A stretch of 63,542 nt of DNA, the filler included, from Folioceros fuciformis (lineage: Eukaryota), in NCBI GenBank assembly GCA_049999805.1. It is 11 parts of 11 records of this genome, joined end to end, with 100 filler letters (N's around TTAATTAATTAA, not from the genome) between each part and the next. Parts side by side here need not be neighbours in the genome. Positions count along the whole stretch, not along the records: positions 41,660 to 46,250 come from JBNGIO010004976.1; 10 more parts are not named here. The stretch is one strand, 5' to 3'. A program made the position numbers and the translations under genes. Below, one piece after another: positions 29,263-62,635 of this stretch; positions within the stretch are counted from its first letter, which is position 1; the number at the start of each line of letters is the position of its first letter. The notes beneath the pieces were generated by a model. The model was not told the origin of the DNA. It saw only the letters and a program-made list of their open reading frames with translations, and ran no database searches.

Positions 29263-29362
29263 NNNNNNNNNNNNNNNNNNNNNNNNNNNNNNNNNNNNNN
29301 NNNNNNTTAATTAATTAANNNNNNNNNNNNNNNNNNNNNNNNNNNNNNNNNNNNNNNNNNNN

Positions 29363-31049: not shown

Positions 31050-31857
31050 GAAAAATGAACAAGTGAGTGTAGCCAGTGCCAGGCGGATTCCTAGAGGTGT
31101 GCGGATTCTTCGTGGTGGCAAGGACCATTGTGGCACTTGAGGGCATTTCGCTCTGTGGGACTAGGTACTTCACAACTTTGTAGCAAGCCTAGCATGTTTT
31201 CGCTGCACCCCCTGCACACTCTTCATGGTGAGCACGTTGTACACGTGCTTTGCAGGGTCTCCTCAACTCCATCTCCTTACCAATACTGCCCTATGTATAT
31301 CATGCTGTACAGTGCGGGTGAAAGCACATTGGTAGCCAGTATGCCGAGGAGTATCACGGCACAAGAGCTTTGCAGTTCACAGGAAGCAGGTGAAACTAGG
31401 AACCCCAATCACAATCCAGGCAGTGCGAGGCACATATCTAGACTTTTACTTAACGACAATTCCTCGTCTAGTTACATCGAGGACCGCGTTGTCGTTTCGG
31501 CCTTCAAGATACCAACTGACCCAACTGCGTGATCAGGAACAGAGACCGTGATACCATGGCTCGCTGAAAATTTCTTGGTATATGTAGCTTGGCTTGCACT
31601 TAACGTTGACAAGCCTTAAATGAAATTCTTGGTTCTCTTATGGCAGCTGACTAGCAATTAACTGTTTTGTATATCTAAAGTTACTACCTAATATCCGTCA
31701 CATGGTCGAGTGGTCTTAAGTACCAGTCCGACAGCTCGCCCACAGGTATTAGAGGACGGCTCACCCCTTCAGGCAGGACGGCTCACGGTTCACCCCTTCA
31801 GGCTGCTGTGGTCACACATACATACGTACAGTGTACCCGGCTGGGGATATGCCCAGA

Positions 31858-32010
31858 CGAGACATTGTTGTAAGGGATGGGTAGTGTGCATCGATTCGCA
31901 AATGGTTGTTGCAGTTGTAAGGATTGACCATGAAAAAAATGAAGTGAGTGTAGTCAATGCCAGGCGGATTCTTAGTGGTGTGCAGATTCTTCTTGGTGGC
32001 ATGTACCATT
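31858..32010 (+). pseudogene. Degenerate duplicate of the 3' end and 3' flank of the PPR-DYW gene
   Basis: gagacattgttgtaagggatggg...cgattcgcaaatggttgttgcagttgtaaggattgaccatga... matches about 30973-31130, with an indel and a premature stop. Confidence 0.8.
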
Positions 32011-32071
32011 GTTCCCCGAACAAGAAGACGAAAGAAAAAAAAGAAGCTGTAGCCTAGAGATACATAAATGA

Positions 32072-32702
32072 GTGAAACTTGTAATACCAATCCCTGGTTG
32101 CCTGCCTGAAACCATAATGGTTTCTTCAACGTGCACACTAGCCTTTTTTGCCCTTCTCAATGGAACCCTGTGGTTGTTGCACATATATCTATACCTCTTC
32201 CTGGAGATCACCATGCATAAATGTCGACTTCACATCCATCTGGATAAGTTCCATGTCGTCACAACCACACTAAGAACACATTGCATGGTGGTCATTTTGA
32301 CTATTGGTAAAAAATCTCATCAACGTTAACACCTTACTGTTGTTTAATACCTTTAGCAACCAATCGCGCCTTGTACTTGGGTTTGCCATAATGGGGTATG
32401 TCCTTCATCTCATACATCAATTTGCATGGCAATGCCTTCTTGTCCCTTGGAAACCAAACCAACTTCCAAGTTTGGTTCTTATGGAGCGAAGCCTTCTACG
32501 AATGCATCGCAATCTCCCACTTGTCCTTGTCAGTCACTGACATAGCCTGTTGATAACTAGAGGACTTCCCACAATCCGTCAGCATAAAATAATCAAGAGA
32601 TGCAACATACCTGTCAGGAGGACGTGAAATCCTTCTTGAACTACGAAGCAATGGCGCCTCGATTGGAGCTGGTTGCACTCTCTCCTCTTCTACAAGTAGA
32701 GG
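32072..32702 (-). mobile_element. Ty1/copia (Tnt1/Tork-like) RT N-terminal remnant
   Basis: LRSSRRISRPPDRY, LTDCGKSSSYQQAM...KWEIAM, plus degenerate RT motifs. Confidence 0.7.
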
Positions 32703-34446
32703 TGTAGGGTTATTAAAGCCCAATGTGCTTAGACTAATGTGTTTAGTCTAAGATTAGTGTCTAGTTAAGTGCCATTAGTTTAGATTAGTTTAAGCTAATC
32801 TGTAGGAAGCTTCTTGTGCAGCTTCTTGTGCGCTTCCTGTGAAGCTTCCTAGGGAGCTCTTCTAGAGGGTATAAATACCCTCTTGAGCTCCCTTGCTATT
32901 GAGAGACTCTATTGTAAGAGTGTGACCTCTCTTTCTCCTCTCCTCCTTGCCTCCCCTCTCCTCTCCTTCACCATGCTCCTCTAGCGATCCTTCAAGTGGT
33001 ATCAAAGCTTGGTGTGGAGCAAGATGGTGATGTCCTTGGTGCTGTGGACAAGGTGGATGTGAGGGAGACAACATTGGAGTGAATAAGGGCTGTGTGTGGC
33101 ATTCCAGGGACCCAGGGCGCCGGGAGCACGTGTGCACAGGCCACAAGTGCAAGTGCAAGGCGCAAGTGGAGGCGGACGCCCAGCCACAGGGCGTTGTGAG
33201 ACCTCGGGGTTATGGCACAGCCAAGACCCCAGGCACGGTGCAGGGCATTGCCAAGCGAAGCGGGCGCCAGGCCCTAGCCTCCCCGCTATGAGGGGCGCCG
33301 AGAGGTGCGAGAGGCACCTATCACGGGTGCCTGGGGCAGGCTCAGGCGGCCAGCCAGCCGTGGGGGTGCAAGCCAAGCCCCAGCCCGAGGGAGGCGCCAG
33401 GTTGCCCGGCACAGGCCGGGCGCCGGCCCAGTTAACCGGGTGCCCCAAACTCCCCAGCCGCCCCGCTCAGGGGTGCCAAGCGCCAGGAGGCGCCGGACCC
33501 TGGCAGGTGCGGCGCAAGGCTCCCCGGTGGGGGGGTTGCCATGCCGTTAGGCCCCCACCCCCGGAGCAGGGGCTATTCCCGAGCACCAGGGGGTGCCGCT
33601 AGGCCGCAGGCTAGGCCACCAGCCTGGCCCACGGGGACCGCCTGACCCAGCCGCCCCACTGAGGGGGCGCCAGGCCCCCGCAGCCGTCAGGCACAGGGGC
33701 GTCGGCCTAGGCCGCTGCCACTAAGGTGCGGCCAAGCCGCAGGTGCCGTGGCACTGAAGTGCCTCTGGACGCTGAGCGCTGGAGCGCGGGGCGTTGCCGA
33801 ACGCGGCCGCGGGTGCCAGTGCGACTCGAGTAGGCTGCCGGCCACCAGCAGCGCAGGTGGGTGTAGACCCAACCGGTGGGCGACATGGACGAGGCGAGTC
33901 GGGCCAGTGAGCGTTGCGGACGCCGGGACGTTGGGCCGTAAACGCAAACAAAGAAGCGGGTGCAAACGTGGGCGACGAAGGAGTGAGCCAGCTGAGATTC
34001 CGATTGCAAGGCGGCAAAATCTCAATCGAAAGATTTAGGCCCGTCGAGTCGACTTGTGGATAGCCAATTCGGAACGAGAGTGAGGGTAACAAAATCTACA
34101 TTACATTTCAACAGTTTCTAACTAGCATTTTGCTTTATTTGCATCGATTTTGAAACATGGCGTCCTCAGAAAACGTCATGTTCAATATTGAGAAGTGAGA
34201 TGGTACTTACTTCCCGTTCTAGAAAGAACAAGTGTATAATGTTCTAGTGCAGAAGAAGCAAATCAAGCCGATAAACTTGCTACGAGTCAAACGCGTTAGG
34301 ATGAGTGGCAGGACCTAGATGAGCTTGCCTAGGTCTACCATCATCATAACATTGTCAAAGTCGGTCTACTTCAACGTGAAAGACAAGACCACTAGCTATG
34401 AGCTATGGCAGAAATAGTGTGACCTGTATGAGAAGCAAAGTGCGGC
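32703..34446 (+). mobile_element. Ty1/copia 5' end: LTR 32703-32994, iMet PBS 32997-33008, GC-rich leader, degenerate gag from about 34157
   Basis: TGTAGGG...TTCA LTR with TATAAAT, then TGGTATCAAAGC, then gag MASSENVMFNIEK*DGTYFPF*KEQV. Confidence 0.85.
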
Positions 34447-34546
34447 NNNNNNNNNNNNNNNNNNNNNNNNNNNNNNNNNNNNNNNNNNNNTTAATTAATT
34501 AANNNNNNNNNNNNNNNNNNNNNNNNNNNNNNNNNNNNNNNNNNNN

Positions 34547-35844
34547 AAAGGTGGGACCCTTCGGCAATCAGTGCCCGGGGTTTTGCCTCCACATTTTTGG
34601 CGCCGTTGCCGGGGAGCGGCTTGGGAGTTTCTTTTGCTGATCGGATGGAGAGTCTAAGTTGTCCTGTCGATGTCTGGTGGAAGAGGTGATCGCAGAACTG
34701 GTAGAGGAAGAGCAGTTGCAACCCCGTCACCAAGGGATCTGCGTGCAACAAGGAGGAATTTGCTGAGAGGAGAGAGTAGCTTGACCCCTAAGGCTAGCGC
34801 CCTTGTGCAGGAGGAGCTGCCTTGGTCAAGTGGAGAGCACGAATCTGAAGGGTTGATTGCCGGAGAGCGTGACATCCAGGAGTCGAGTGTTGTGCAGTCA
34901 ACTCTAGCCCCTGTAGTGGTTTCAGTAGGGGCTGTACTTCCTACGTCAAGTATCAGCCAAGTGGGTGGAGGAGTTGCTGCAAGGATGGCTGCTCCTATTC
35001 ACAGTCGTCAGCAATACGTGAAGTTCGGAGACAAGAGAAGAGGGGAGGATGCTGAATCCTTCCTAAGGACGTTCGAGCATGTGTCTCGTGCCAACATGGA
35101 GGACACTACAGCTGATCGTTTGAGGATCTTTCCAGGTTTGCTGAGAGGACAAGCTCAGCAGTGGTACAGCCGGACGTATGGAGTAACACCACCAGTGGAT
35201 TGGGACAGCCTGAAGGACGATTTCTTAACCAGGTTCCGAGGTCTCAGCCATGGCCATCACACCTACGCGAGGTTGAGGACTTTGAAGCGAGGAAGGAAGG
35301 AGGATCTCTATGACTACATTGAGAGGTTCTACAGCTATGTGGACAGGATTCCACGTGGTAGGCCAGTTGTTCCGGGAGGTCCGAGTACTCCAGGGTACAC
35401 GGATGCTCAAGCTTTGGATTGGTTTGCTGGAGGACTACCCGATAGGATGGCGACCTACTGCACAAGAGGTGTGACCACTTTGCAGGAGGCTTTGAAGGCT
35501 GCTGAAGATTTTGAGCTTTCGGAGTTGAGCAGAGAGAAGAGGAAGCAGAACCGGAAGTATGGGCATCATAGGAGGTCAAGACATCACAGCCCATCTTCCT
35601 CTTCAAGGTCGAGGTCACCGTCTCACTCAGATCCAGATTATGACAGCCTTGTGTCAGATTCTTACACCGATGAGGAGTCCGATAAGGCTTATGAGAAGAG
35701 GATGAGGAAGGACCTGGAGAAAGCACGCAAGAGGCGCGAGGAGGATGAGGATCGTCGAGCTGAGAAGGACAAGAGAGGCAAAGGATCCTATAGGATGGAG
35801 AGAGGCGAACCGTCCTCAAGTGGTGGAGGACTGACCAGTCAGGT
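34547..35844 (+). mobile_element. Athila-like family A: LTR 3' end, PBS at about 34597 and gag ORF from 34670 (intron-less version)
   Basis: cctccaCA-tttt-TGGCGCCGTTGCCGGGGA, then gag EDAESFLRTFE...LLRGQAQQWY...WDSLKDDFLTRF. Confidence 0.9.
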
Positions 35845-36070
35845 NNNNNNNNNNNNNNNNNNNNNNNNNNNNNNNNNNNNNNNNNNNNTTAATTAATTAA
35901 NNNNNNNNNNNNNNNNNNNNNNNNNNNNNNNNNNNNNNNNNNNNTCAGGAATGGGCCGTCCAAATTGAACAACTTGAAATCTGAAGTCGCCGTACCACAT
36001 GCCGTTCGTTAGTTCACAAAACGTGAACCACACGCACGAAGAATTCCAGGACAGGACTCTCAAATCTCAC

Positions 36071-38737: not shown

Positions 38738-38837
38738 NNNNNNNNNNNNNNNNNNNNNNNNNNNNNNNNNNNNNNNNNNNNTTAATTAATTAANNNNNNN
38801 NNNNNNNNNNNNNNNNNNNNNNNNNNNNNNNNNNNNN

Positions 38838-39265
38838 GCCGTATGGTTGAGAAAGCTCATGGAGGAGATTGGTTATGAACAATTGCATCCGACCACTCTT
38901 AGGAGCGATAGTCAAGGAAGTATGGCCTTGATCAAGAATCCAGTGCATCATGCAAGGACAAAGCATATTGACATTCAACATCACTTTGTACGTGAGAAGG
39001 TGAAGTTATTGGAGGTTACCTTTGAATATTGCAACACTGAGGAAATGGCTGCAGATTTCTTAACCAAGGCAGTGAGTAAGTTCAAGTTTGAGAAATGCAG
39101 GGGACTACTTGGATTGAAGCAAACTCAAGTGCGCTGAGTGGGAGTGTTAAGCATGATTAATGTTGATATTAATTAGTGCTAATCCAGCTTATTGAGTTTG
39201 TACTAATTAGTGGTAAGAGTGATTAAGGTTATGATTAATATATATATATAGCTTATTAGACTTTG
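38838..39265 (+). mobile_element. Ty1/copia RNase H end, PPT and start of 3' LTR
   Basis: SDSQGSMAL..NPVHHARTKHIDIQHHFVRE..ADFLTK, then gagtgggag followed by TGTTAAG. Confidence 0.9.
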
Positions 39266-39268
39266 CTA

Positions 39269-39549
39269 TGTTGGGCAAAAGAAGTATTGTAGGGTTTGGT
39301 TGGGGTCATTTATCCCATATTGGGCATGAAATGAGAGTGCCACCCATAGGTCCATAAAAGAAGGGATGAACCCACTTAGTAGAGGCAGTCTAACTCCCTC
39401 TTCACTTGTATTGTGTTGTTTTTGTAATTCTCCTTTTTTATTTGAGTTTAAGAGCCTTGTTATAGTGCTCTTAGTTTTGGTATTCTGCATCTTGCTTCAA
39501 CTAACTTGTTTTAACCTCCTTTGAGCATGGCGGGGGTGACATCTCAACA
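39269..39549 (+). repeat. Solo LTR-like repeat; inverted second copy at 41401-41559
   Basis: TGTTGGG...TCTCAACA. Its last ~155 bp are the reverse complement of 41401-41559. Confidence 0.75.
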
Positions 39550-41400
39550 GCCAGGACCTATGATAGCCCCTAGAGCTTGCATAACTTGATTGTTGAACTT
39601 CCTAAGACTTGATAAGAAAACTAGTGACGACGCATCATTTCTAGTGAGGTAACCTAGTCGCCGCGCAAAATAGGACAAAGTAGGACCAAACGCAATATGA
39701 GGATCACCGATTTGTGAGAGGTCCATGATATGAGCCAAATCTTCATCCAACGCTATAGCAACAAAACATATGATTAAAATCAGGATGTCCTATAGGAATA
39801 CCCAAGACTCGAAGTCTTTGCAAGGGAGCAATATGCCCCCTAAATATTGAAGGGGACGGAGTGATGTACGAAGGGAATTAAATCCTACATTTAGACAACT
39901 TAACTCTTAACCCCACCTTTGAGAGCTCCGAGGAGAAGAAATCAAATGCTACTTTGACTAAGACTCCTAGCCCAAGAATATGAGTATCATCGACCACCAA
40001 TGCGAAAAGGAATAGTTAAGCCATGTTGGTAGTAGAGCTTGGATGGTGAACCACAGAAGGAGCAAACAAAAGGGATGAGACGAGCCAAGTGACCTTATGC
40101 ACTCTTGAGCTCCGAGAGTATGGCAACTTGAAGGAGGTAGTACACTTAAGTGTGGCACATCTTTAGGATATAGGGTTAATGGTGGGACAAACACATGCAT
40201 ACATAGTGATGTTGTATTAAGGTAAACAATACTTTATAGAGAGCGTTAAAAGGAGCCATTTCCAGTTATGCTTAGAACAAAAGTTTGATTAGAAGTAACT
40301 TTCATTTTATGTTCTCACATGCATGATTATGAACAATAACCCAAGCATTAATTAGTAATGCTTGATAAACAATAAGTGTGAAAAAAGGTTTGGTTGATTC
40401 CCAATCACATGTGTCTAGCCATAACTTGGAAACTATAAATTTCAATAAAGGAATGGCAATCAGAAACTAAATGAGCATGCGAGAGATATGTGTATAACAT
40501 AGGGTGATGACAATGTGCTCACAAATCGAATCCCTAGTGGGATCCGTAACAACCCCACCAACGACACAAACCTATTCCCCCCAAGTACCTCCCGACAAGA
40601 CACCATGCCAGATGGTACCCTATGTTGATAATGGCAACCCCACGACTACATGTAGAGAGAGAAAAAATCAAGGGGTGGGCCTAACCTAAGCGAAATCTCA
40701 TTGCAGTGGCCAAAGTTGTTCATGTGGTTTAAAACCCTGAATGCAAGGTTAAGCCGAAAAGCAAAGAGCTCACTTCTTTACCTAAACAAGAGCAAATACG
40801 AGTTCGAGAAGAGCTAGGGATGGATGAGTCCAAAAGAAGGGCTCTTAGTGCTTGGCCATATTGCTTTCCAAGATCTCTTCAAGACCCCTCAACCCTTCCC
40901 TAGAAAAGAAGGTAGAGCCTTATGACCCTCCAAAGGGAAAGAGTCTCTTGCTTACCTACAAGGTACCTGTACAGGAAAACTGCCCTCCTCAATGCTTGAA
41001 ATAAAACCTTCAAGAGAGGAATCTTGCAGCAAAAAACAAGAGGCCAAAATTGGTGCTGAGAGCACCTAGCTACCGAGAAAGGCAGCTAGGGTAGAAGCCT
41101 CCATGGCCAAAAGGCCAAACCCCCTGAAAGGTGACTGTAAAAACATCATTCCACTATTACAAAAAGCAACATATAGTGGGCTACATTGTAGTAGTGCAAA
41201 CCAATATACAAGTATATGAGATCTAGCTATCTTAGAAAGTTGGATTTTTCAAAATGAATCCATACCTGAAACTCAAGATGGTCCAACCCGATGCACAAGC
41301 GATGGCAGTTGTTTAAGAATTGGAAGGTCCAGCTCTATTGTGGTGGCAAGGAAAAAAGCAGTCGATAGTAGATGCAAGAGCAAGTTATTTCGGTAATCTA
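39550..41400 (-). mobile_element. Highly degenerate non-LTR retrotransposon RT (CRE-like)
   Basis: Minus-strand remnants ALVVDDTHILG (about 39970-40000) and LRVLGIPIGHPDF (about 39778-39815). Boundaries uncertain. Confidence 0.5.
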
Positions 41401-41659
41401 TGTTGAGATGTCACCCCCGCCATGCTCAAAGGAGGTTAAAACAAGTTAGTTGAAGCAAGATGCAGAATCCCAAAACTAAGAGCACTATAACAAGGCTCTT
41501 AAACTCAAATAAAAAAGGAGAATTACGAAAACAACACAATACAAGTGAAGAGGGAGTTANNNNNNNNNNNNNNNNNNNNNNNNNNNNNNNNNNNNNNNNN
41601 NNNTTAATTAATTAANNNNNNNNNNNNNNNNNNNNNNNNNNNNNNNNNNNNNNNNNNNN

Positions 41660-44600
41660 GCCAAACTGGCAGCAGCCATTAACGACCATCAGGCGGAGAT
41701 TGTAGCTAAGACCATCTCCGCCACCACACCACCTCCAACGGTGGTGAATTTGACACTAGCAGATTGGGCTACTGCCATAGCTGGTGTGCAGGAGTTTCTA
41801 CACACCTGCAAGTACCTGAACCCAGTGGAGGAGTTCCTAGCTATTTTGGAGAGAGCATTCTCATTGAAGACCTCAAAGAAAATTGCAGAACTTGTTGCCT
41901 TTGCTCGCAAAAAGGGGGAGACAGTCCAGATGTGCTTCAGGAGGCTATAGAAATTGAGGGAAGGTACAGGGATGTTAACAAATCAGGAAGCAGCGTAGAG
42001 GTTTTTGACTGCACTTGAAGGAGACCCGTTGTTTCATTTCCAGCTGGCTACGTCCTTGGTGGACAAATATGGAGACAAGTACACTTTGGAGCAACTGCAT
42101 GAAGAAGCTCAGAAGAAGGAGGTAGCCTTCTCGGTCTATGCCTCTCGGCATTCCAAGGCCTTCACGCACTACCAGTCCATGTTCTCTAGCAAGGGGGCAG
42201 CTAACACAGGTGCAGGAGCCAAGACTGGTCAGACTAAGCCAGTTAAGGTAGTTTCAGCAGCAGCTCCAACAGCAGCAGTGGTAGCCATGTGTAACCACTG
42301 TGGCAGCCCTGAGCACATGTGCCCTGCATGCAAGTGTCCTCCAAAGGGACTCTACTACATCCATTGCCAAAAGAATGGACACGTGGTTATTGTGTGCTTC
42401 CAAAAGCACCCCGAACGAAGATACCAGAAGATTGGTACCATGGGGTCTGCAGGAGCCACAACTGCGAGTGTGGAAGCAGGAGGAACGAGGAGCGCTGTTG
42501 GGTTGTCCCGCAGTAAGCAATAGCGTGACAAGGTCAAGGCTAAGGCAGCCGCCACTACTGACAAGGTTAGCTCCCTTGAGGCTTCCATGGCCGCCACGAC
42601 AGCTCAACTTGTAGTCTTAACAGCCAACATCACCGGCTCTTCCAAACCAGCCAATGCGGTGAAGTTGGTACCAGTACAAGAGGATGAGGATTATGGCCCA
42701 GCACACCAAGTATGTATGGTTGACAGAATTGGTGACAGCAGCATGGAGGTTGAATTGCCAGCCACATGGGTGGTGTAGAATTTACAGGTGGTCATGAGAA
42801 CAACAGCACCTGCCTTAGGGCCTGTCACCAGGAATCGAGGGGCCAGGGCTACCATGCCAAAGTCCTTTTCCCCGTTGCCATCGGGGTCTACAATTCCGGT
42901 ACGAGCCCAGGAGCACTCAACGTTGTGTGTGGAATAGCTGGCCACGAGTAGAACACCTGGCCAGAGCATGCCAACACCAGAGCATGTGTATCTCTTACCT
43001 CAAGCCACCAAAGTCACACAACTCGCTGCCAAGCTAACTTAGGTGCCAGTTTTCACACTGCAGAACATGGGCATCATGACCAGCAGGCTGAAGGAAGTTC
43101 TTCAAATTGCAGAAGCCACGGCTGCATCTGCTGACCCTAGCCTAGGTGCAGCATACACTTCACAATGGGTGCTTCCAACAGAGGTGTCACACTCTACAGG
43201 TGGGCAGACTGCACCGAGTCATTGTAGTGGCTCTTACACTGTACAGCTAGCTAAGGGAGTTGACAGCCAACCGCGAGTGCAGTCCACCAATCGACTGCAG
43301 GCTCGTGTCAACAATGCAGTTGTTGACAATCGTGGTGGGCACATCACAATCAATGGGTATGCACCCAGAGTGGTGTTGCTGGACACGAGAGCCCAACCTG
43401 TACTCGTTGGGAAGATTCTGGCTGCAAGGTTGCATCTTCAGGGTGATGCATTGCATACCTCGCCCTGGAACATCAGAACGGCATCTAGGGCTATTGAACC
43501 AGTCTGTGGTGAGATAGTCCAACCCTTGGACATCACCTTGAACTCAGGCACGCCAGATGCCATGACATTGTCCTTGCCCTGCCTAGTAACCACAGCCACC
43601 AACTATGATTTGTTGTTGGGGCAAGAGTTCCTCTTCCCACCAGGAGTTGGTGTGGATAATTGGACTGAGTAAGCCTTCTATAGGCCTGACTAGAAGCAAG
43701 GAGGTCGTCACATTGGATATCTGCCGTTAGATTTGCATGGCCGGGTGGAGGTTGATGTAGCCACTTTGGTGAAAAGCCTGGCTGTAGGTGGTATCAAAAG
43801 TAGCAATGTGGTGGAGCTTGTCCAAGACACATACCAAGTGGACAAGCATCTAAAGACCAATGTTGCCGAGGCCCAAGTGAGGTGTACCAGTTTGCAGCAA
43901 GCTCAGCCTGACTGTCCAGAGCAGGCAGAGGCATTGCTGACCAAGGCACAAGAGCAGGTCAACAAGGCGCAACAATTGTTGGAAGCCGGGACTCTGTCAT
44001 CTTGTCCCACATCTTATGTGGACAATACTGTCAACATATGGGCACCGGCTGCGCCAGCCCTTACAGTCATTGAACTGTTTGGTGGTATTTGTACCAGGTT
44101 AGAAGCCTTGCTCTTGACAGGTTTGAGCATTCAAAGGTACCTTTACTGTGACAAAGACCCCGTTGCCAGGCAAATTGCTGCATTTCGGCTGCAGAGCCTA
44201 CAGCATCGTTTCCCACAGCAACTATCAGCTGAGGCTGTGGCTAATACATTCACGTCCTTACCTCAGGACGTCCAATACATACAGTAGGGCCACATCCAAG
44301 CCTTGGGCCCCATCGACATGGTCATAGCTGGCTGGGAATGCCAAGGATTCTCTCAAGCTGGGGTAGGTGCAGGATTGAGAGATCCACATTCTGGTCTGTT
44401 TAGAGATCTCCAACAAATCTTGGCATGGGCACAAGATAGTAACCCTCAATGTGCAAACCTGCTAAACACACCAGCCCAGTTTGATACCCGGCCACAGGTG
44501 CAGCAGGATATGGCCATTGTGCGACATTTTGCAGGGCCACCATTCCTCATGGATGTTGTGCAGGTGGGCAGCTATGCCCACAAGCTTCGTAACTACTAGA

Positions 44601-46098
44601 CCATTTGGTCCCTGTCTCCGTGTTGGACTTGGCTCTCTAGAACACCAGCAGGGATCCAGGGCTGCAACTTTGTACTGTATTGGAGAACTACCATCAGCCA
44701 CGACTTGAGGTGGCCAGTGAGAAAGCCCCTTGGTTCAAGACCAACATTCCAGGTCAGCCAAGGCACACGTTGCCCATGCTAGTAAGCCTTCCGGGTTCAT
44801 TCGCTTACAGAGGAGAAGGAGCTGGCTTATTACTGAATACAGAAAGGTAGCGGTGGGAAGAACCAACAGTTGAGGAGCGAGAGCGACTCATGGGTTTTCA
44901 AACCCATAGTACAGCGGCCCCCACTATCACCAATTGGCAGCGCAAGGGCACTCTAGGACGAGCCATGGACCTCCATGCCATCACATGGTTGGTGAGTTTG
45001 TGCCTTGCCTTTCAGCTGCACACTCAGGTCACTCCCATGCTACTCCCAGGCTTGTTTGCTAGCATGTGCCCTCGAGATGCTATTCACCTCCCATTCCTAG
45101 GATACACACAGTTGCCTTTCTGGCTAGATGCTGGGGGGGTGGAGTACGTAGTATTGGCATCACGTACTGTTTACTCAGTATCTGATCAAGCCAAGGCAGA
45201 AAAGGAGGATCCAGGAGCTACACCCAAGATGTCTGCTGCTAATTTCCCTTGGAAGATGGGCTCAGAACTCAGTCTGAAGCAACAGGACCGCATTCGTAAC
45301 TTGCTGCTTAAGTACAGGGACTGTTTTGCCTTTTCCATGCATGAGCTCAAGAGGTGCAATGTCACAACCTTTCGCATCAACCTTACCACCCAAGAGCCTG
45401 TATACAGGCGACGATATAGGTTAAGTAAGACGGAATGGGACATGGTGGATGCAAGATGCAAGGAACTGTACGAGGCAGACCTAATACATCCTTCTAACAG
45501 TGACTATGCTGCTGCCACTATGATGCCACCCAAAAAGGGCAGCCAGGGTTTGTGGACTGAGAAGAGGATGTGTGGCGATTATAGGCCCATCAATGAAGTA
45601 ACTGCCCAGGATCGGTACTCAATGCCGACACCAGAGGAGATCTTTGACCGTATTGGACAGTCTATGTTCTTTTCCACGCTGGACCTGCAACAAGGGTTTA
45701 ACCAGGTCCTAGTGGCAACTGAAGATATCAAGAAGACAGCCTTCCATGGTTCTCAACAACTATGGGAATGGCTAGTGATGCCCTTTGGATTCAAGAATGT
45801 GCCAGTGACCTTTCCTCGCATCATGGACATAGTACTAGCTGGAGCCGGCTATCTCATGTGCTACATTGATGATGTGCTAGTCCACAACATGGACTTCGAG
45901 GATCATTTGGTACACCTAGAAGACCTGTTTGTAAGATTGCAAAAGGCATAACTCACATGCCACCCAGCCAAGTGTGAGTTTGGCATGAGCACTGTGGCGT
46001 ATTTGGGCCACAGAATTGTTCCCAATGGTGTCACCCCATATGCTACCAAGGTTCAGGCAATTATGCAAGTTAAGGAACCGACCACCGTATCAGCCCTG
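41660..46098 (+). mobile_element. Ty3/gypsy polyprotein: gag, protease, C5 DNA methyltransferase, RT (degenerate, both ends missing)
   Basis: Zinc knuckles (CNHCGSPEHMCPAC), protease VLLDTRAQPV, MTase motifs, RT RMCGDYRPIN, STLDLQQGFNQ, VMPFGFKN, CYIDDVLV. Confidence 0.92.
44060..44995 (+). pseudogene. DNMT3-like DNA (cytosine-5)-methyltransferase domain within the gypsy polyprotein
   Basis: Motif I LTVIELFGGI, II YCDKD, III DV, IV DMVIAGWECQGFS (catalytic Cys at 44339-44341), V SGLF, VIII GSYAHKLRNY, IX ERERLMGF, X LGRAMD. Confidence 0.88.
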
Positions 46099-46350
46099 AT
46101 GTGACATAAGCAGAACTCAAGGGTTTCTGTAAACAAAGAATATAAAGGGACATGCAAAATTAGGTTTGGATGGAAATCTAATTCATTTATGTTCCAACAT
46201 ATCGTTCATGGTGGGATTGGGTCGTGACGTGTGTGCATTCTTTAATTTTANNNNNNNNNNNNNNNNNNNNNNNNNNNNNNNNNNNNNNNNNNNNTTAATT
46301 AATTAANNNNNNNNNNNNNNNNNNNNNNNNNNNNNNNNNNNNNNNNNNNN

Positions 46351-46631: not shown

Positions 46632-46732
46632 TCTCTAATTACCGATTTATCACCGTGGAGTCTCTTCCTCTAATTACCGATTTATCACCATGGAGTCTCT
46701 TCCTCTAATTACTGATTTATCACCGTGGAGTC
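46632..46732. repeat. 34-bp tandem repeat x3 at the 5' end of the LINE fragment
   Basis: tctctaattaccgatttatcaccgtggagtctcttcc repeated. Confidence 0.85.
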
Positions 46733-47650
46733 TATTTATGCTAAGATCTTTAGCTCTTGTTTGGAAACTTTGACTACGTCTTGGGTTGAAGTTGCTCGGG
46801 GACAAGCCGGTTTCCGCCCCGGTAGGAATACTTTGTATCATCTTTTTACTCTCTGGGCTATTATTGAGGGGGCTCGACATCTGAAGAAGCACGTATACTA
46901 TTGTTTTGTTGACTTTAAGCGTGCTTTCAACTCTATGCCTTGGGATAAGTTGTTTGACAGACTTCAGTCTCTTAAGATGCCTCCTCATTTGTGGCATGCT
47001 GCTACCCTTCCCTACAAAAGGGTCTTCGCTCGAATCAAGACTCCCCGTGGTTTGTCTTCCCACCAAATCCCTATCCAACTTGGCATTCGTGAGGGTGACT
47101 CTTTGTCCCCAAATCTCTTTGGGTTGTATATTGATGAGCTTAAGGAATGGCTTCTTCGATCTGACGACCTTGGTGCTCGGCTATTTCTGGAAAGGATTCC
47201 TATCCTTCTATATGTGGATGATACTGTTCTTTTATCTCATTCCCTGGAGGGCCTGCAAAAGCAATTGGATGTTTTATTCCTTTTTTGCAAAACCAAGGGT
47301 CTCTTTGTCAATCTGTGCAAGACCAAGATTATGTGGTTCAACACTCGGGATTACAAGGGTGATTGCAAATTTTATTATGATGGTTAGGAGGTGGAGATGG
47401 TCCGATCGTATACTTATTTGGGTATCACTATTTTCGGTTCTAAATTTAATTAGACCTCCTTTGCGTCCTCCGCGCTACCAAGGGGATGGGCTCTGTCCGT
47501 GCTTTGCGTCGTTCTTTATACAGGATGAATCGTTAGGATATCAATCTTCCAAAGCAGCTATTCAATATTATGGTAATTCCCTCCGCCTTGTATGGTGCTG
47601 AAATTTGGGACCCGGATCTTTCCCCTTCTTGGGCGATGGTGGAAAAGGTG
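46725..47650 (+). mobile_element. LINE (non-LTR) reverse transcriptase fragment
   Basis: QAGFRPGR, CFVDFKRAFNS, GIREGDSLSPNLF, LLYVDDTVLL, VNLCKTKIM, YTYLG. Confidence 0.92.
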
Positions 47651-47989: not shown

Positions 47990-50900
47990 CTACTCTCCTT
48001 TGCAGCTGTAAACCATTCCAACCTCCAGAAGGTTTGGAGCTGGAATCTGCAGATCGGCGATGCTGGACCTGCAATTGGTTTGGAGAAGGTAGAAAACCTT
48101 GTTCACCACAAACCTGTGAAGCCATCCAGCTTCCTGGGTGAGCTGCACTTTTGCTCTACCTATGACGTAGACTGCTCCGTTTTTGAGTTCATCTTGCAGC
48201 CTTTGCATCTCCTCCGGAATGGTTCTGAGGAACTGGCTCCGCGCATCGGCCTTAAGCCTTTCAGCGTACACCTCGGCCGAGAGTTTCTTGGCCTCCAGAT
48301 ATTCGTTGAGTGAGGCTACGACCTGCTGCATGAAGCCCTGATCTCTGACATTTACGAAATCTTTGTAGCCGTACCGGGCTATGCACCTGTACACTCCCCC
48401 GGGTCCGCATCCGGATGCGACCCTGCCCACCAGAAAACGCTCGCTTGGCAGGACGGTCTTCACAGGCACAAACCTTACGGTCGTGAAAACCAGTGTTCGG
48501 TGGAGGCTGCGGACATTTTTGACATAGTGGGTGAACACCGGAGGTGGTCCATCCGAGAGGTCGCTGAAGAAGAAGCATATTCCTGGCACCCTTTGGAGGT
48601 CAGGGCTCTCTAGGAGTTCCTTCAAGCTGTCCCCTGACAATCGGTTCTGCGCCTCATACGCTTGCTTCACACGTCGACCTATGTTCCAGGTGAGCATCAC
48701 CAAGAGGAGGAGGATGGCTATGGCAAATGGCACCCAACCTCCCTGCGGAATTTTTTTCATCACCGCTGTGATGTACACGCCTTCTATGGATATGAAGCTA
48801 ACGAAGAAGAGCAGTATGAGCGGCCAAGCTGTCTCCCAAATCACCAGCATCACTAGAGTGACCAGGCAAGTTGTTATCGCCATCACAAAGATCACAGCTA
48901 CCCCTGCAACATTTTAAACAAATATGACTCGTGAAGAAAAGTTTCAAGGATCTTGGCTGTGGACTTCACACTGAAGGAAAGTTCAATTCGGAAGACGGAG
49001 AGCTCAAAAACATCTTACCATAAGCATTCCCGATCTGGGTTCCATCCCGGAATCCGAGCACAACCGCAAGGCAGAGAATCATGAGGGCGTAGTTCGCTGC
49101 AGGGCAGTACACCTGCCCCTCTTCCTGTTCGGACGTGTGAGTTATCTTCACTCGGGGAAAGGACCCAAGAGCCACCGCCTGCTTGACTATGGAGAAGGTA
49201 GCAGAGATCAAAGCTTGGCTAGCAACAATTGCAGCAAGTGTTGATATCACAAACATAGGCCAGTACACCTTGTCTGGGATAGAGGCAAAGAAGGTAGTCC
49301 CGATCTTCGATGGATCATGGATTATGAAGGCAGTCTGGCCCAAGTATGTGAGTACGAGCGAGGGATAAACAAAACAGGAAAATGCTAGCTGCAAACAACG
49401 ACAAGCCAGTCAATCCTTCGTTCCTCCATGATTGTTCAACCGACAAATGTATGAAAAGCTCCTAGCCTGTAGTGCTGGACTACTTGCTTACTTGAATGGC
49501 TCGATGATTAAAGTGGCCCAAATCGGCAAACATGGCCTCAGCACCTGCGTTCATTATCATGATTGAGAATCTGAGAGTTTGGAGGGGAGGGTAAGGTAAG
49601 GTGAAGGATGATGCCGCTAGTCTACCTGTGATGACGAGGATGATGCCGCTAAGTGCTTCCCATCCGTGCAACTTGTTCTTTTGGAAGAAAAAATAAATGT
49701 AGTGCGGGGATAAAGCCTTGAAGACTCCCGGATAATATTTCACGATGTTGTAGAGGCCAATTATGGGTGTGCAGGCAAACCATAGGACCATGACCGGCGA
49801 AAACAGGAAGGCAACCTTGGAGGTGCCAAAGCGTTGAAGCAGGAACACTAACAGCAGTATGACCGCTGAGACGCCTACCACCGTTGCTGCATTTGTCACG
49901 AGTCACACACAAGACATATCAGATGGGAAAGCTAGAAACTATTGGCCGAAACGGCTAGTAGCTCATGACGATTATGCATGAAACTTGTACGAAGAGTTGA
50001 TCAGGAAGCTGTCTTTCGAGTAATACCTTGATTGATGTGGGAGCCCTTTGCCTGCTGGATGCCAACCACAGCTGAGAGAACTGCAGGAGGTCAAGCAATA
50101 CCACCTGTTCAGCAGACTATGTCGCAGCGGACTGGTCCCAGGGGTGCAGGCCGACAAAATGACGACACCAACATTTAAAGTGATTGTTTGCAGCTAGTTA
50201 ACGGGCCTGTTAGTCTCTACCTGATATAGCTGGCGTGAGTACACCATCACCCATCACCATGCTCGTGCCAATCATAACGAGGATGAGCAATGCTCTCTGT
50301 GCCGTCTTGCTACTCTCCAAGAATTTTATGGTACGGGAGTGTATCCCCTTACTATTTTTGCTGAAAAATTGCAGCTGTGAATCGGACTGCAGGGGCTTGT
50401 AAGATCTGCCAGCCGTCTGTCCGATTCTTGCATGCTGACACAACTTAGAGTATAACGCAGCCGTACCTCCTGTAAAACGCAGCCGTCCACGGTTGGGTGG
50501 ATGTGAATGATATTGAGCTGACTCCAAAACCGCTTTATACTCTTAAGTGGGTTCAAACAAGAAAGAAATGAAAAGAAAAGAAAAAAACAGTCGTCCATTG
50601 TACAGGACCTCAAAACTCACCTTCCCCGTGGTCGTCAGCTCGGAGCACTATAGAAACGTATTTGAGAAGCGCGATCAACGTCAGAGTCCAGAACATGATG
50701 CTCATGACTCCTAGCACATCCATCTCCGTCACAGGATTCTGCCACTGCGTGCTAGAGAAAACGTAGAGCGGAGACGTGCCTACGTCGCCATACACCACTC
50801 CCAAAGTCTGGTACGCAAGCAACAAGGTCTGCCAAGTGCCATAGTTCTGCAGAAGAAAACACGATCAAACAGCTGCATAAGCATCCGTCACAATTCAAGC

Positions 50901-51210: not shown

Positions 51211-52292
51211 CGCGTCAGCACCAAATTCCACAAGGCACGAGCATACCGTGAAGAAGTGAATTTTGCTAGCATTGTGAAACCATATATATACACAATCGAG
51301 CACAAGGACCGCGAAATATTTCCGTTTCCATCCCCATTCCTCAACAAGAAACACTATATATCGAGACCTGCCAAACACGACTCGCTCATGAAATGAGGAC
51401 CTCACGCTTTAAGAGTTGCTAATTCCAGCCGCAGCAATATACCAATTGGAGGTCGCAGTGGCCGGAAGAGAAGAGCTCCGGACACGAGAGCGCGCCAATA
51501 AGCTGGTGAAATTTTTTAGCAGCGGGCATTCTAGTGAAGTAGTCGGAGGCGGCGCGCGCGCGGGCGGCGGCGCCGGGGGACGTGAGATTCAACTGCCGAA
51601 CTCGTGAAGCAATAGCGGGCGCAGCTTTCCCCGTCACATTCAATGGTTGGCCAGTCCGAGAGGCGAATACATAACTGCGGTCACGGTTGCCTGCTGCGGT
51701 GCGCCAACCGGATGTGCATCTGCATCTGTAGCTCTGGACGTCACGAGACGAGAGTGGATGAAAGTAGGTTGCGAGGTTCTTTGCCGTTGCACGCTGCAGC
51801 ATCCCGGGAAGTGCTGTGGACTGGAGAGCGCACGCGCCGCTGCTCTCAACGCGGCTGCATGAGATATATTTGGAGGATTCCTTGGCCGTGTGCGCGTGCG
51901 GGACGAGAGTTTGTCAGTGGGACGAGAAAGGCGGGAGCGGGGAACGGGGGCATGATGGGGTCGCAGTTGAACTTACGGACGGGGTAGCGGAGCGGAGCGG
52001 ATCGGATCGGAGCGGAACGGAAACAAGTCAGAAATGCGGAGCGGAAACAAAGACGCTGGACTGGACCATCGCCAAGGGAGGGAGGAGAAGGCGCCGCTAC
52101 GGCCTCTTGAGGGCGTGCCTGAAATGAATGAAACCTCGTTAAACATAACATATGGTACAACACAACACACGACAGTAACATATGGTACAACANNNNNNNN
52201 NNNNNNNNNNNNNNNNNNNNNNNNNNNNNNNNNNNNTTAATTAATTAANNNNNNNNNNNNNNNNNNNNNNNNNNNNNNNNNNNNNNNNNNNN

Positions 52293-61049: not shown

Positions 61050-62635
61050 GACGTGTTAAGCTGTGCTGGCAGTTAACCTAGTTGTTAGTTAAGACGTAAA
61101 ATAGGGTCAGCTGACAAACATGTTTAGGCTAATGTGTTTAGTACTGGTAACCAATTGCAAGGTAGTCTTCATGCTTGAGCAACGAGGTGGAAGAATGGTC
61201 GGACCAACCTGATCACGTGAATGCGCATTGGTTTGAGAAGGAGCGTGAATGAGACACTGAAGAGGAGTGCAACACTAGTGTGAAGTGCGTGGCTCGCGAG
61301 AGGTGCATCATCAGAGCGAGGTGCTACGTAGTAGCTAAGTGCAAAGCAATCGGGGGAAACCTCAGTTGTGAGAAGTCTTTCCGGTTGACCAGACTTAGCG
61401 CCGCCGAGGTTCTCCTGACGTTGCTGATGGAAACCCACATACAAGAATATAGTATCAAGACTTTCTGCGTTCTCAAAAGCTGAATGATTGATGTCGGCAC
61501 AAGCCGAGCTTCCAAAGTCCTGCGTCCAGGGTCACGCTCTGAGGATCCGAGAGTGGGTGTGCTTGTGTTTGTTGATGGTGCTGCTTGTCGGTGTGCTCGT
61601 AAGGGAGATGACTTACCTCAGCTCACGTTTTTGTGTTGCCCGATCGCTGAGAGTGCGTGTTGGGTAGCCTAGGGATTAGCCACTGGTGATTGCCGTGACT
61701 ATCGTGGTGGATACTGAGGCCTAAATTAGGGATGACTCGAATGACGTGTGCGTTGTGTGCCGTCTGCGAGTTCCTTCAAACTTCAATTGAATTTACTTCT
61801 CACAACTAATGTTTGTGCCTTGGCTGATTGCTAGGGTCTCAGGATAGGGACGTCAGCTGATGCAAGCAGCTGACAGGTTTTGCTGATCACGGCTGTGAAG
61901 ACTTGTGCTTGAAGTGATACATGTGTCTAGGGTACACCCTTGGACAGACTGTTTGGGCAAAGGATTCATAGTATGTGGTTCATGCTTGTTGATTTTGTAA
62001 ATAAAGCGGAAGCTCTCGTGTACACGAAACAAGTGCACAAGCAAGAATAAATTTAATTAAGACAAAGTATGCTTAAATACAAAAATGTCCGTGTAANNNN
62101 NNNNNNNNNNNNNNNNNNNNNNNNNNNNNNNNNNNNNNNNTTAATTAATTAANNNNNNNNNNNNNNNNNNNNNNNNNNNNNNNNNNNNNNNNNNNNTAGA
62201 GAAGATCAAATGCAGTACTGGTGAGGCCTAGTTCGCTAAATCACCTACAATGGCTTGAGTGACCAATAATGAAGAGGAAATTATTCCAAATCCCCCATTA
62301 GGTAATGATAATGCTAACACCTCATTGCATTATCATTAAAGTAACATCTTCAAAGGGAAAGACAGATTCAATGGAAAAGACTGAAATATGGGCATTGAGA
62401 ATGCAAGGAGCCTTACAACAAAGAGACCTTTGTGGCATTGTTGATTTTATCAATTCCAAGACTAGAAAATTGATTTGAACGTGATCTTCAACCTTCATAG
62501 AACGCTGTAGAGGAAAAAAACTTTCGGAACTCCCATTTTGAGAGACAGAATACACAGGTTTTGATTTTTTTCTTGTGAAAGTGTGAGTGAAACCGCTTAG
62601 CTTGAGAATAAGACTTGGGTATTTATACCCAAAGT

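What the first reader, a model, noticed from the sequence alone, without database searches (positions are those of the whole stretch)
41660..46098. Ty3/gypsy retrotransposon encoding its own DNMT3-like cytosine methyltransferase between protease and RT, in a land plant
Seen in sequence: gag (41741, 42005, 42587), protease (43043) and the MTase N-half (43733, 44303) lie in one reading frame broken only by point stops. MTase motifs IX-X are in the same ORF (44890-45951) as the RT. The MTase is therefore an integral polyprotein domain, not an unrelated insertion. Motifs run in linear DNMT3 order (I FGG, IV GWECQ with the catalytic Cys, VIII SxAHxxRxY, IX ERERLMGF, X LGxAMD) rather than the permuted order of DRM. 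Motif VI appears to have lost its Glu, and there is one frameshift near 44600-44700, so this copy is dead. Established: cytosine-MTase-carrying retrotransposons are known from dinoflagellates and charophyte algae such as Klebsormidium (de Mendoza and colleagues). I do not know of a characterised family in embryophytes. Inference: the family could methylate its own cDNA or insertions, and might have persisted from streptophyte algae into hornwort-like plants.
Basis: partly seen in the sequence, partly recalled or inferred. Interest (0 to 1): 0.9.

Follow-up and report, generated by a model that had tools for sequence, protein, structure and literature searches.

The report
Dead methyltransferase-carrying gypsy retrotransposon copy
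This is a broken copy of a jumping gene that carries its own DNA-methylating enzyme, a kind first described in a freshwater alga, and its relatives turn out to sit in moss and liverwort chromosomes as well.

Summary
Contig 41660-46250, one of 11 contigs joined by artificial linkers, carries gag, protease, a DNMT3-type C5-methyltransferase and reverse transcriptase in that order. MTase motifs IX-X share one open frame with the RT. This copy is dead. It has 13 stops, one frameshift near 44602 and no Glu in motif VI. It is cut by the contig start and leaves the family at 46098.

It belongs to the Gypsy-DNMT3 lineage described from Klebsormidium nitens (de Mendoza 2018). A named K. nitens protein with CCHC, protease and MTase in the same order matches it. 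Closer relatives are named proteins of Closterium species, the liverwort Calypogeia fissa and the moss Sphagnum magellanicum. RT and MTase trees both place the window with the bryophyte sequences. A family profile and a confident fold model match DNMT3A/B/C best, and the motif order is not the permuted order of DRM.

Runs of three studies under one species label hold many copies, and these read differently at several of the breaks.

A neighbouring contig has a DYW-type PPR gene, so the host is probably a land plant. A hornwort is not shown. Enzyme activity and self-methylation are untested.

Verdict: new member of a known kind. I found no paper reporting it in land plants.

The parts
41560..41659 (.). 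Artificial linker (N44, TTAATTAATTAA, N44) before the element's contig. It is not biology.
41660..42778 (+). gag-like region, cut at its 5' end by the contig start (it begins at about residue 93 of relative P0191). CCHC knuckle at 42290-42331. A second knuckle at 42362-42397 lacks its first Cys. Four of the 13 stops lie here (41948, 41996, 42521, 42776).
   Evidence: tblastn: P0191 residues 93-1136 against 41660-44611 in one frame, E 1.8e-154. Translation. Coordinates.
43343..43630 (+). Aspartyl protease domain. The active-site motif reads D-T-R (43376-43396) where relatives read D-T-G.
   Evidence: Pfam Asp_protease_2 E 1.4e-4 and gag-asp_proteas E 1.8e-4, both just under their cut-offs. Relatives P0191 and P0192 read LLDTGAQP.
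44048..45018 (+). DNMT3-type C5 cytosine methyltransferase domain, split over two frames. Motif I at 44072-44095, IV (GWECQGFS, catalytic Cys present) at 44330-44353, VI without its Glu at 44459-44473, VIII at 44570-44596, IX at 44875-44898, X at 44953-44970. Stops at 44285, 44597, 44638 and 44848.
   Evidence: PF00145, 23.1 bits. tblastn of K. nitens P0207, and of P0002 and P0010. DNMT3A is the best solved relative. Motif table.
44600..44605 (+). Frameshift: the reading passes from the frame of 41660 to the frame of 41662.
   Evidence: All tblastn matches change frame at 44602. Translation.
45223..46098 (+). Reverse transcriptase (YIDD at 45862-45873), in the same open frame (44851-45951) as MTase motifs IX-X. 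One stop at 45949. Homology to the family ends at 46098, inside the RT thumb region.
   Evidence: RVT_1, 64.6 bits. tblastn of P0010 and P0002. Other copies run on past 46098 with family sequence (table 7).
46099..46250 (.). Unrelated AT-rich sequence that starts with TG. It may be the edge of another insertion, or a rearrangement. It has no second copy in the window.
   Evidence: Summed word depth here is 8 (X1) and 5.2 (X2), against roughly 270-720 and 180-380 over the element (table 2).

Best explanation
Bases 41660-46098 are a decayed, end-truncated copy of an LTR retrotransposon of the Gypsy-DNMT3 lineage. This is a Ty3/gypsy lineage whose polyprotein reads gag(CCHC)-protease-DNMT3-type methyltransferase-RT, followed in relatives by RNase H, integrase and often a PHD finger. 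The lineage was described from the charophyte Klebsormidium nitens. It also occurs in Closterium, a moss, a liverwort and, most probably, the land plant this assembly comes from.

Shown here: the MTase is an inherited part of Pol, not a nested insertion. It shares an open frame with the RT, the same order recurs in relatives, and the RT and MTase trees agree.

Shown here: this copy cannot make protein. It differs from the other copies mostly by C-to-T and G-to-A changes. Those listed are enriched at CHG sites, as expected for DNA that the host methylates.

Inferred, not shown: in working copies the domain acts as a de novo cytosine-5 methyltransferase on the element's own DNA (cDNA or a new insertion) or on nearby chromatin, and the PHD finger of relatives reads histone tails.
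For: Anatomy.

Fusion seen elsewhere: the 366-aa MTase-RT frame found 67 proteins (E<=0.001, of 1655 candidates). Of these, 31 also hold the MTase, and P0002 covers 100% of the query at 50% identity. Pfam order in relatives: P0021 has CCHC 515, protease 787-878, MTase 969-1266, RT 1415-1569, RNase H 1632-1760; P0006 has RT-RNase H-integrase-PHD; C. fissa P0192 has protease then MTase.

Link to K. nitens: P0207 (GAQ93235.1) has CCHC 297-313, protease 598-691 and MTase from 833. It matches the window's MTase at 36.6% over 194 aa (E 4e-31) and its gag (E 2e-7).

Trees: in the RT tree, one clade of 39 of 58 rows (99) holds every MTase-bearing row, and the window groups with P0002 and C. fissa P0003 (98). 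In the MTase tree, the window groups with P0191, P0002, P0189 and C. fissa P0192 (99).

DNMT3 likeness: the family profile scores DNMT3A at 7.5e-17, M.HhaI at 5.5e-8 and DRM2 at 7e-7, in three collinear stretches. A model of family member P0209 (pLDDT 92.8) has DNMT3A/B/C at every listed rank down to 46 (E 2e-17, TM 0.80).

Copies in reads: 132 contigs of run X1 and 104 of run X2 lay on the stretch at 85-100% likeness. A 9251-base contig of X3, from another study, covers 41660-46098 with 237 other letters and 19 gaps and runs on at both ends. X8, from a third study, gave 2 pieces. Other copies read differently at two of the stops, at motif VI and at the frameshift.

Decay: the reads show G or C where the window has A or T at 126 places, and the reverse at 64. 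CpG observed/expected is 0.33, the lowest of the 11 contigs. Of 25 listed changes of this kind, 13 lie at CHG sites, against 21.8% expected (p 9e-4).
Against: - The contig has no LTR, RNase H or integrase, so the gypsy order beyond RT is read from relatives only.
- PF00145 passes its cut-off by only 1 bit on this copy, and the protease hits are below theirs.
- No enzyme activity is known for this lineage. The K. nitens domain gave no methylation in yeast, which the authors call inconclusive (PMC5890265, passages read).
- Motif IV has Glu instead of the usual Pro before the Cys, here and in 68 of 150 family representatives. Its effect is unknown.
- The host is inferred from other contigs of the same assembly. 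The species label of the runs is coded, and the best DNA holder may be the assembly's own sample.
- The CHG count rests on the 40 best-supported of 259 listed differences.
Confidence: 0.85

Rival explanations
1. The contig is contamination from a streptophyte alga living on or with the sequenced plant, not part of the plant's genome.
For: The element lies on a short contig of its own, so nothing on that contig ties it to a plant gene. Many of its relatives are algal: Closterium in 31 of 67 rows and K. nitens.
Against: Its nearest named relatives in both trees are bryophyte proteins on contigs of 8.9 to 66.6 Mb, not algal ones. Runs of three studies under one species label hold the family. Summed depth over the element is tens of times that of the adjoining 152 bases on the same contig, although the tool warns that this is no copy number.
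Confidence: 0.05
2. A host DNMT3 gene, or a fragment of one, lies next to or nested in an ordinary gypsy element, so the fusion is an accident of this locus.
For: The MTase region holds a frameshift and four stops, so continuity with the RT had to be argued.
Against: Motifs IX-X and the RT share one open frame. The same order is found in 31 of 67 RT-matched proteins of other organisms. The RT and MTase trees agree. There are no introns and no PWWP or ADD-type companion domain.
Confidence: 0.02
3. The lineage reached land plants by horizontal transfer from algae, or between plants, rather than by unbroken descent from a streptophyte ancestor.
For: LTR retrotransposons do move between plants (general knowledge). 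The family's known distribution is patchy: K. nitens, Closterium, one moss, one liverwort and this plant. A variant occurs in the chlorophyte Haematococcus. In the unrooted MTase tree, the bryophyte group sits nearer the RT-before-MTase group than to Closterium or K. nitens.
Against: The moss-like, liverwort and window sequences form one clade yet are only 50-69% identical in protein. That fits old divergence better than recent transfer. No rooted tree or test of clades was made.
Confidence: 0.25
4. The domain no longer methylates DNA. It may serve instead as a binding or structural module of Pol, or act on RNA.
For: The K. nitens domain gave no methylation in yeast. Motif IV reads ECQ, not PCQ, in 68 of 150 representatives.
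Against: Apart from the Pro-to-Glu change in motif IV (ECQ for PCQ), motifs I, IV (Cys), VI (ENV/ENT), VIII (R-x-R), IX and X are kept in the relatives aligned from K. nitens, Closterium and the bryophyte group, wherever the gene model covers them. The fold model overlays DNMT3 catalytic domains. The yeast result was inconclusive because human DNMT3B also failed there.
Confidence: 0.25

Closest known systems
KnitGypsy-Dnmt3 of Klebsormidium nitens (de Mendoza et al. 2018, PMC5890265; passages read)
   Same: Both are LTR gypsy elements with an unrearranged Dnmt3-type domain inside the Pol frame. A named K. nitens protein (P0207) has the same CCHC-protease-MTase order and matches the window's MTase and gag. 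K. nitens P0213 spans the MTase-to-RT junction.
   Different: The host here is probably a land plant, and the MTase is only about 37% identical to P0207. The window belongs to a separate clade with moss-like and liverwort sequences. I could not check that P0207 is one of the published copies, because supplements are closed and the figure is not held.
SymbioDIRS-Dnmt3 of Symbiodinium (same paper)
   Same: A Dnmt3-type domain sits in the Pol polyprotein of a retrotransposon, and two domain orders coexist.
   Different: It is a DIRS element with a tyrosine recombinase, in a dinoflagellate host. It is the only retrotransposon DNMT type with shown de novo CG activity in yeast. Its relation to this family was not tested here.
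Host DNMT3 (human DNMT3A/B/C catalytic domains; plant DNMT3 of mosses, Yaari 2019, cited from PMC10952607 and PMC12344493; passages read)
   Same: They are the best sequence and fold matches. Motifs I-X are collinear, with the catalytic Cys, ENV, R-x-R and the IX/X pattern ER..GF...LGR.
   Different: About 20% identity. There are no PWWP, ADD or plant companion domains and no introns, and the domain is embedded in Pol. Motif IV often reads ECQ instead of PC(N/Q). The domain is longer than DNMT3's: 385 model residues against about 285 in the chains.
DRM2, the plant rearranged de novo methyltransferase
   Same: It is a distant relative of DNMT3 and is found in streptophytes.
   Different: DRM2 matches only weakly (E 7e-7), and at the permuted place in the chain. 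The element's motifs run in the normal order.
Chromoviruses and the EpiLTRs of the 2026 preprint 10.64898/2026.05.21.726589 (passages read)
   Same: Both are gypsy-type elements that carry chromatin or methylation modules.
   Different: Relatives of this element end in a PHD finger, not a chromodomain. The EpiLTR DNMT is reported as sister to DNMT4 and sits at the 3' end of pol. That preprint lists 'streptophytes (Gypsy-DNMT3)' only as previously known.

Membership tests
Ty3/gypsy LTR retrotransposon | RT of the gypsy type | tested here: met
   RVT_1 at 64.6 bits. All RT matches are gypsy-type polyproteins that also carry RNase H and integrase families. In the RT tree, the window sits inside a starred clade of such proteins.
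Ty3/gypsy LTR retrotransposon | Pol order protease-RT-RNase H-integrase | tested here: inconclusive
   Protease lies before RT on the contig. RNase H and integrase lie beyond the break at 46098 and are seen only in relatives (P0006, P0010, P0021).
Ty3/gypsy LTR retrotransposon | Long terminal repeats and target-site duplication | tested here: inconclusive
   The contig starts inside gag and leaves the element at 46098. No repeat of the element is found in the window. A 9251-base contig of run X3 extends 2173 and 2620 bases beyond, but its sequence cannot be read here.
Ty3/gypsy LTR retrotransposon | gag with a CCHC zinc knuckle | tested here: met
   C-X2-C-X4-H-X4-C at 42290-42331. The gag region aligns to P0191 and to K. 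nitens P0207.
Gypsy-DNMT3 (KnitGypsy-Dnmt3 lineage) | C5-MTase domain inside the Pol reading frame | tested here: met
   Motifs IX-X and the RT lie in the one frame 44851-45951. The N-half lies in the frame of gag and protease.
Gypsy-DNMT3 (KnitGypsy-Dnmt3 lineage) | Homology to the K. nitens element proteins, with the same domain order | tested here: met
   P0207 [K. nitens] has CCHC, protease and MTase in that order. tblastn to the window gives E 4e-31 for the MTase and E 2e-7 for gag. In the MTase tree, P0207 falls among rows with the MTase before the RT or with no RT in the model, in the half that also holds Closterium.
Gypsy-DNMT3 (KnitGypsy-Dnmt3 lineage) | Identity of P0207 and P0213 with the copies published as KnitGypsy-Dnmt3 | not testable with these tools
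   The paper's sequences are in supplements, which are closed, and figures are not held.
Gypsy-DNMT3 (KnitGypsy-Dnmt3 lineage) | Conserved catalytic residues | tested here: not met
   Not met in this copy: the motif VI Glu is missing, the first Arg of motif VIII is Lys, motif I reads TRL for TGL, and there are four stops and a frameshift. Met in the relatives aligned, and other copies in the reads differ at motif VI.
DNMT3-type C5 cytosine methyltransferase | Motifs I, IV, VI, VIII, IX and X in the unpermuted order | tested here: met
   Three collinear stretches against DNMT3A. Motif coordinates rise along the strand.
DNMT3-type C5 cytosine methyltransferase | Closest solved relatives by sequence and by fold are DNMT3 enzymes | tested here: met
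   The profile scores DNMT3A at 7.5e-17, M.HhaI at 5.5e-8 and DRM2 at 7e-7. The window's own N-half scores DNMT3A at 2e-3. Foldseek lists DNMT3A/B/C at every listed rank down to 46 for the model of family member P0209.
DNMT3-type C5 cytosine methyltransferase | Placement inside the DNMT3 clade in a tree with DRM, DNMT1, CMT, DNMT2/4/5/6 and bacterial enzymes | not tested
   No such outgroup sequences could be obtained. Only the best 150 of 10887 matches were returned.
DNMT3-type C5 cytosine methyltransferase | Methyl transfer to cytosine in DNA | not testable with these tools
   This needs a bench assay. The published K. nitens test was inconclusive.
DRM (domains-rearranged methyltransferase) | Permuted motif order (VI-X before I-IV) | tested here: not met
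   The order is linear. DRM2 matches only the motif I-IV part, at chain positions 222-350.

The most novel reading that the evidence does not exclude
A gypsy lineage carrying a DNMT3-type methyltransferase, and often a PHD finger, is much older and wider than the single Klebsormidium acquisition described. It spans chlorophytes (in a variant order), charophytes and land plants. In at least one land plant it still has unbroken, transcribed copies whose enzyme methylates the element's own DNA. Some 'DNMT3' genes counted in bryophyte genomes would then be transposon genes.
Probability: 0.3. Interest if true: 0.8.

Novelty: new member of a known kind. Interest (0 to 1): 0.6.

Why it matters
Cytosine methylation is the main way plants silence transposons, so a transposon that brings its own de novo methyltransferase is a paradox worth testing. 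It was known from one charophyte and from dinoflagellates, and was read as a lineage-specific capture. Finding the same architecture in Closterium, a moss, a liverwort and this plant moves the question into organisms with genetics and methylome data. Sphagnum is itself one of the hosts, and mosses and liverworts include the laboratory models Physcomitrium and Marchantia. It also changes the evolutionary reading towards an old, long-kept Pol domain. It warns that DNMT3 gene counts in non-seed plants can include transposon copies. This particular locus is only a dead fragment, and the value lies in the family.

Tried and rejected
- No whole genome is held for this window, so copies, LTRs and flanks could not be sought in the assembly.
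- Rfam found nothing in the window.
- The earlier-findings index had nothing for this genome. A look-up by sequence gave only a chance word match.
- No RNA holder is listed for the stretch. Run X3 is RNA only by the tool's guess, so expression stays open.
- The first fold model, from a 6-row alignment, was poor (pLDDT 47) and was not searched.
- The protein atlas placed the K+ transporter exon only in its family and did not help with the host's lineage.
- Names: 30 family representatives were looked up, and only 4 carry an organism (K. nitens twice, Closterium, Haematococcus).
- Literature searches that found no report of the lineage in land plants or Closterium. The library lacks many subscription papers, and supplements were closed, including those of PMC5890265 and PMC12344493, which may list more hosts.
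- The idea that the private C-to-T changes sit at CpG was rejected. Only 3 of the 25 listed do.
- No binding or complex prediction was tried.
Full report
**What the window is.** The 63,542 bases are not one stretch of a chromosome. Ten identical linkers (44 N, TTAATTAATTAA, 44 N) join 11 contigs of 1.3 to 17.9 kb. The finding lies on its own contig, 41660-46250 (4591 bases, 50.4% G+C). Nothing on either side of it in the window is its genomic neighbour. No whole genome is held for the window.

**The observation.**
- In the frame of 41660 lie a gag-like region with a CCHC knuckle (42290-42331), a protease region (43043-43672) and the N-half of a C5-methyltransferase. The MTase motifs there are I ELFGG (44072-44095), IV GWECQGFS (44330-44353) and VIII (44570-44596).
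- In the frame of 41662 one open frame, 44851-45951, holds motif IX ERERLMGF (44875-44898), motif X LGRAMD (44953-44970) and the RT with YIDD (45862-45873).
- Pfam, on 8 pieces, gave PF00145 on 44288-44599 (23.1 bits, cut-off 22) and RVT_1 on 44851-45951 (64.6 bits). Two protease families fell just under their cut-offs, and the other five pieces gave nothing relevant.
It has 13 stops, 11 TAG and 2 TAA, and one frameshift at about 44602. Motif VI lacks its Glu, the protease reads D-T-R for D-T-G, motif I reads TRL for TGL, and the first Arg of motif VIII is Lys.
- Homology to relatives begins at the first base of the contig, at about residue 93 of P0191, and stops at 46098. The last 152 bases are unrelated, begin with TG and occur once in the window.

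**Relatives.** The 366-aa frame that spans MTase motifs IX-X and the RT was searched among longer proteins. It found 67 proteins (E<=0.001, of 1655 candidates).
- Thirty-one rows are named Closterium species. One is the liverwort Calypogeia fissa (P0003, 58% identity over the RT part).
- The unnamed P0002 covers the whole query at 50% identity. By BLAST, 31 of the 67 hold an MTase-like stretch as well as the RT.
- A search with the MTase part of P0002 (18 proteins of 1665 candidates) added three useful proteins. C. fissa P0192 has protease and MTase (69% identity to P0002). Sphagnum magellanicum P0196 is a chimeric gene model holding protease, MTase pieces, integrase and a PHD finger (93% identity over the shared part). 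The unnamed P0191 (1214 aa) has gag, protease and MTase.
- P0191 aligns to the window from 41660 to 44611 in one frame, over 1094 columns at 32% identity. Gag, protease, the linker and the MTase are therefore all homologous, not only the enzyme.
- Pfam on relatives gives the full order: CCHC, protease, MTase, RT, RNase H (P0021); MTase, RT, RNase H, integrase (P0010); RT, RNase H, integrase, PHD (P0006).

**The link to the known family.** A profile of six mostly MTase-only family proteins (A1) was run against 1.84 billion representative proteins. It matched 10887 at E<=0.001, 2224 at <=1e-10 and 484 at <=1e-30. Thirty of the best 150 were looked up by name, and four carry an organism.
- P0207 and P0213 are Klebsormidium nitens proteins, P0216 is from Closterium, and P0248 is from the chlorophyte Haematococcus lacustris.
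- P0207 has CCHC at 297-313, protease at 598-691 and the MTase from 833, the same order as the window. It matches the window's MTase (36.6% over 194 aa, E 4e-31; 41% over 95 aa) and its gag (E 2e-7). P0213 spans the MTase-to-RT junction.
- De Mendoza et al. 2018 (PMC5890265; passages read) described exactly such elements in K. nitens as KnitGypsy-Dnmt3. These carry an unrearranged Dnmt3 domain in the Pol frame of an LTR gypsy element, with Ka/Ks under 0.2. The authors read it as an acquisition in the K. nitens lineage.
- I could not check that P0207 is one of their copies, because supplements are closed.

**Trees.**
- The RT tree has 58 rows: the window plus 57 hits with at least 170 aligned residues (shorter ones were left out). 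It used the quick method. One clade of 39 rows (support 99) holds every row in which an MTase was seen. Rows without one in that clade are gene models that start at or after the RT. Inside it the window groups with P0002 and C. fissa P0003 (98).
- The MTase tree has 45 rows: the window, read through with X at each break, plus 44 that I chose. It gives the same grouping: the window with P0191, P0002, P0189 and C. fissa P0192 (99).
- The agreement means that the enzyme and the RT have travelled together. The trees are unrooted, so they do not decide between descent and transfer.

**Is it DNMT3-like?**
- Against all solved structures by sequence, profile A1 scores DNMT3A, 3B and 3C at 7.5e-17 to 1.2e-12, M.HhaI at 5.5e-8 and DRM2 at 7e-7. 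The DRM2 match lies at the permuted place in the chain. DNMT3A matches in three collinear stretches (motif I; IV-VIII; IX-X).
- The window's own N-half finds DNMT3A at 2e-3, and the unbroken P0002 domain finds it at 1e-6.
- A fold model of family member P0209, from a 48-row alignment, reached pLDDT 92.8. P0209 is K. nitens-like in its motifs. Foldseek lists DNMT3A/B/C catalytic domains at every listed rank down to 46 (E 2e-17, TM 0.80 on the target).

**The family in the reads.** Coded runs under one species label hold the stretch.
- In two DNA runs of one sample (X1, X2), 132 and 104 contigs lay on it at 85-100% likeness. Summed word depth was roughly 270-720 and 180-380 across the element, but 8 and 5.2 over the unrelated last bin. 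The tool warns that this is no copy number, and that the best holder may be the assembly's own sample.
- X3 comes from another study, and its kind (RNA) is only a guess. It has one 9251-base contig covering 41660-46098 with 237 other letters and 19 gaps. That contig runs 2173 bases beyond the 5' end and 2620 bases beyond 46098. X8, from a third study, gave two short pieces.
- Other copies read on past 46098 with family sequence. They also differ from the window at two of its stops, at motif VI (three more letters) and at the frameshift (one more letter). The breaks are therefore private to this copy or to a subgroup of copies.
- The window has A or T where the reads have G or C at 126 places, and the reverse at 64. 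Its CpG observed/expected is 0.33, the lowest of the 11 contigs, and its TpG+CpA value of 1.47 is the highest.
- Of the 25 such private changes among the 40 differences shown (of 259), 13 lie in CHG context, against 21.8% expected (p 9e-4). Three lie in CG. This fits decay of a copy that the host methylates at non-CG sites, but it rests on a partial list.

**The host.** Contig 29363-34446 has an intronless PPR-E-DYW frame, a gene type typical of land plants (general knowledge). Its best named matches are in the lycophyte Diphasiastrum complanatum (45-51% identity), then ferns, Ginkgo and Cryptomeria. Unnamed proteins reach 62%. A land plant is therefore likely, but a hornwort is not shown. The tie between that contig and the element's contig is the shared assembly.

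**How it most likely works.** The architecture and its persistence are shown. The rest is inferred from the family. In working copies the Pol polyprotein would deliver a DNMT3-type enzyme together with RT and integrase, so the element could methylate its own cDNA or new insertion, as de Mendoza et al. proposed. The C-terminal PHD finger seen in relatives could read histone tails for targeting. Activity is unproven: the K. nitens domain gave no methylation in yeast, and the authors called this inconclusive because human DNMT3B also failed.

**Novelty.** Searches for the lineage in hornworts, bryophytes, Sphagnum, Closterium or Zygnematophyceae found no report. Later papers from the same field mention it only as previously reported in streptophytes (PMC12344493 and the 2026 preprint; passages read). 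The element type is known. Its presence in land plants and Closterium appears to be unreported in the library searched.

Noticed in passing
whole window; linkers at 17902-18001, 19414-19513, 29263-29362, 34447-34546, 35845-35944, 38738-38837, 41560-41659, 46251-46350, 52193-52292, 62097-62196: The window is 11 separate contigs joined by six-frame stop linkers (N44, TTAATTAATTAA, N44). Adjacency between contigs means nothing.
   Followed up: yes
relatives P0226, P0227, P0261, P0285, P0248 and others (not in the window): A second architecture exists, with the same type of MTase lying after the RT. In the 5 proteins scanned, Pfam gives RT-RNase H-MTase-integrase-PHD in two (P0226, P0227), and the same order in two more if the MTase is placed (P0285's model ends in the integrase zinc domain); the fifth, P0206, showed only the MTase. 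Of the best 150 family representatives, 50 have the RT before the MTase, 6 have the MTase first, and 94 show no RT. One RT-first protein is named Haematococcus lacustris, a chlorophyte, on contigs of 10-21 Mb. These form their own clade in the MTase tree.
   Followed up: partly
relatives P0006, P0005, P0013, P0016, P0018, P0020, P0022, P0042, P0196, P0226, P0227, P0261: Many members end in a PHD finger after the integrase, where chromoviruses carry a chromodomain. The window's copy is cut before this region.
   Followed up: partly
window 44330-44353 and family representatives: Motif IV reads E-C-Q instead of the usual P-C-Q in 68 of 150 representatives; 47 have PCQ. The ECQ members include the window, the bryophyte group and some Closterium copies. 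K. nitens P0207 has PCQ.
   Followed up: partly
protein P0195 (not in the window): A 455-aa member of this eukaryotic transposon MTase family is labelled in NCBI as a DNA cytosine methyltransferase of a 'Candidatus Obscuribacterales' metagenome bin. It lies on a 2.4-kb contig, so it is probably a mis-binned eukaryotic fragment.
   Followed up: no
window 29364-31046 (+): An intronless PPR-E-DYW frame, cut by the contig start. It is the best clue to a land-plant host.
   Followed up: partly
window 47990-50864 (-): A multi-exon KUP/HAK/KT potassium transporter gene with short introns (K_trans and K_trans_C).
   Followed up: partly
window 94-3409 (-) and 20771-21820 (-): Copia-type retrotransposon pieces (RVT_2, SH3_retrovirus, Pol_BBD, gag_pre-integrase, CCHC). 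A Retrotrans_gag frame lies at 34658-35842.
   Followed up: no
window 11295-12228 (+): RNase H and integrase-like region of another, more distant gypsy element, 31-40% identical to the family's proteins.
   Followed up: no
window 46716-47387 (+): An open frame with an RT-like YVDD motif lies on the same contig as the potassium transporter gene, next to it. It was seen in translation only and not scanned.
   Followed up: no
window 39330-39524 (+) and 41426-41559 (-): Two nearly identical translated strings lie on opposite strands of contig 38838-41559, which suggests an inverted repeat.
   Followed up: no
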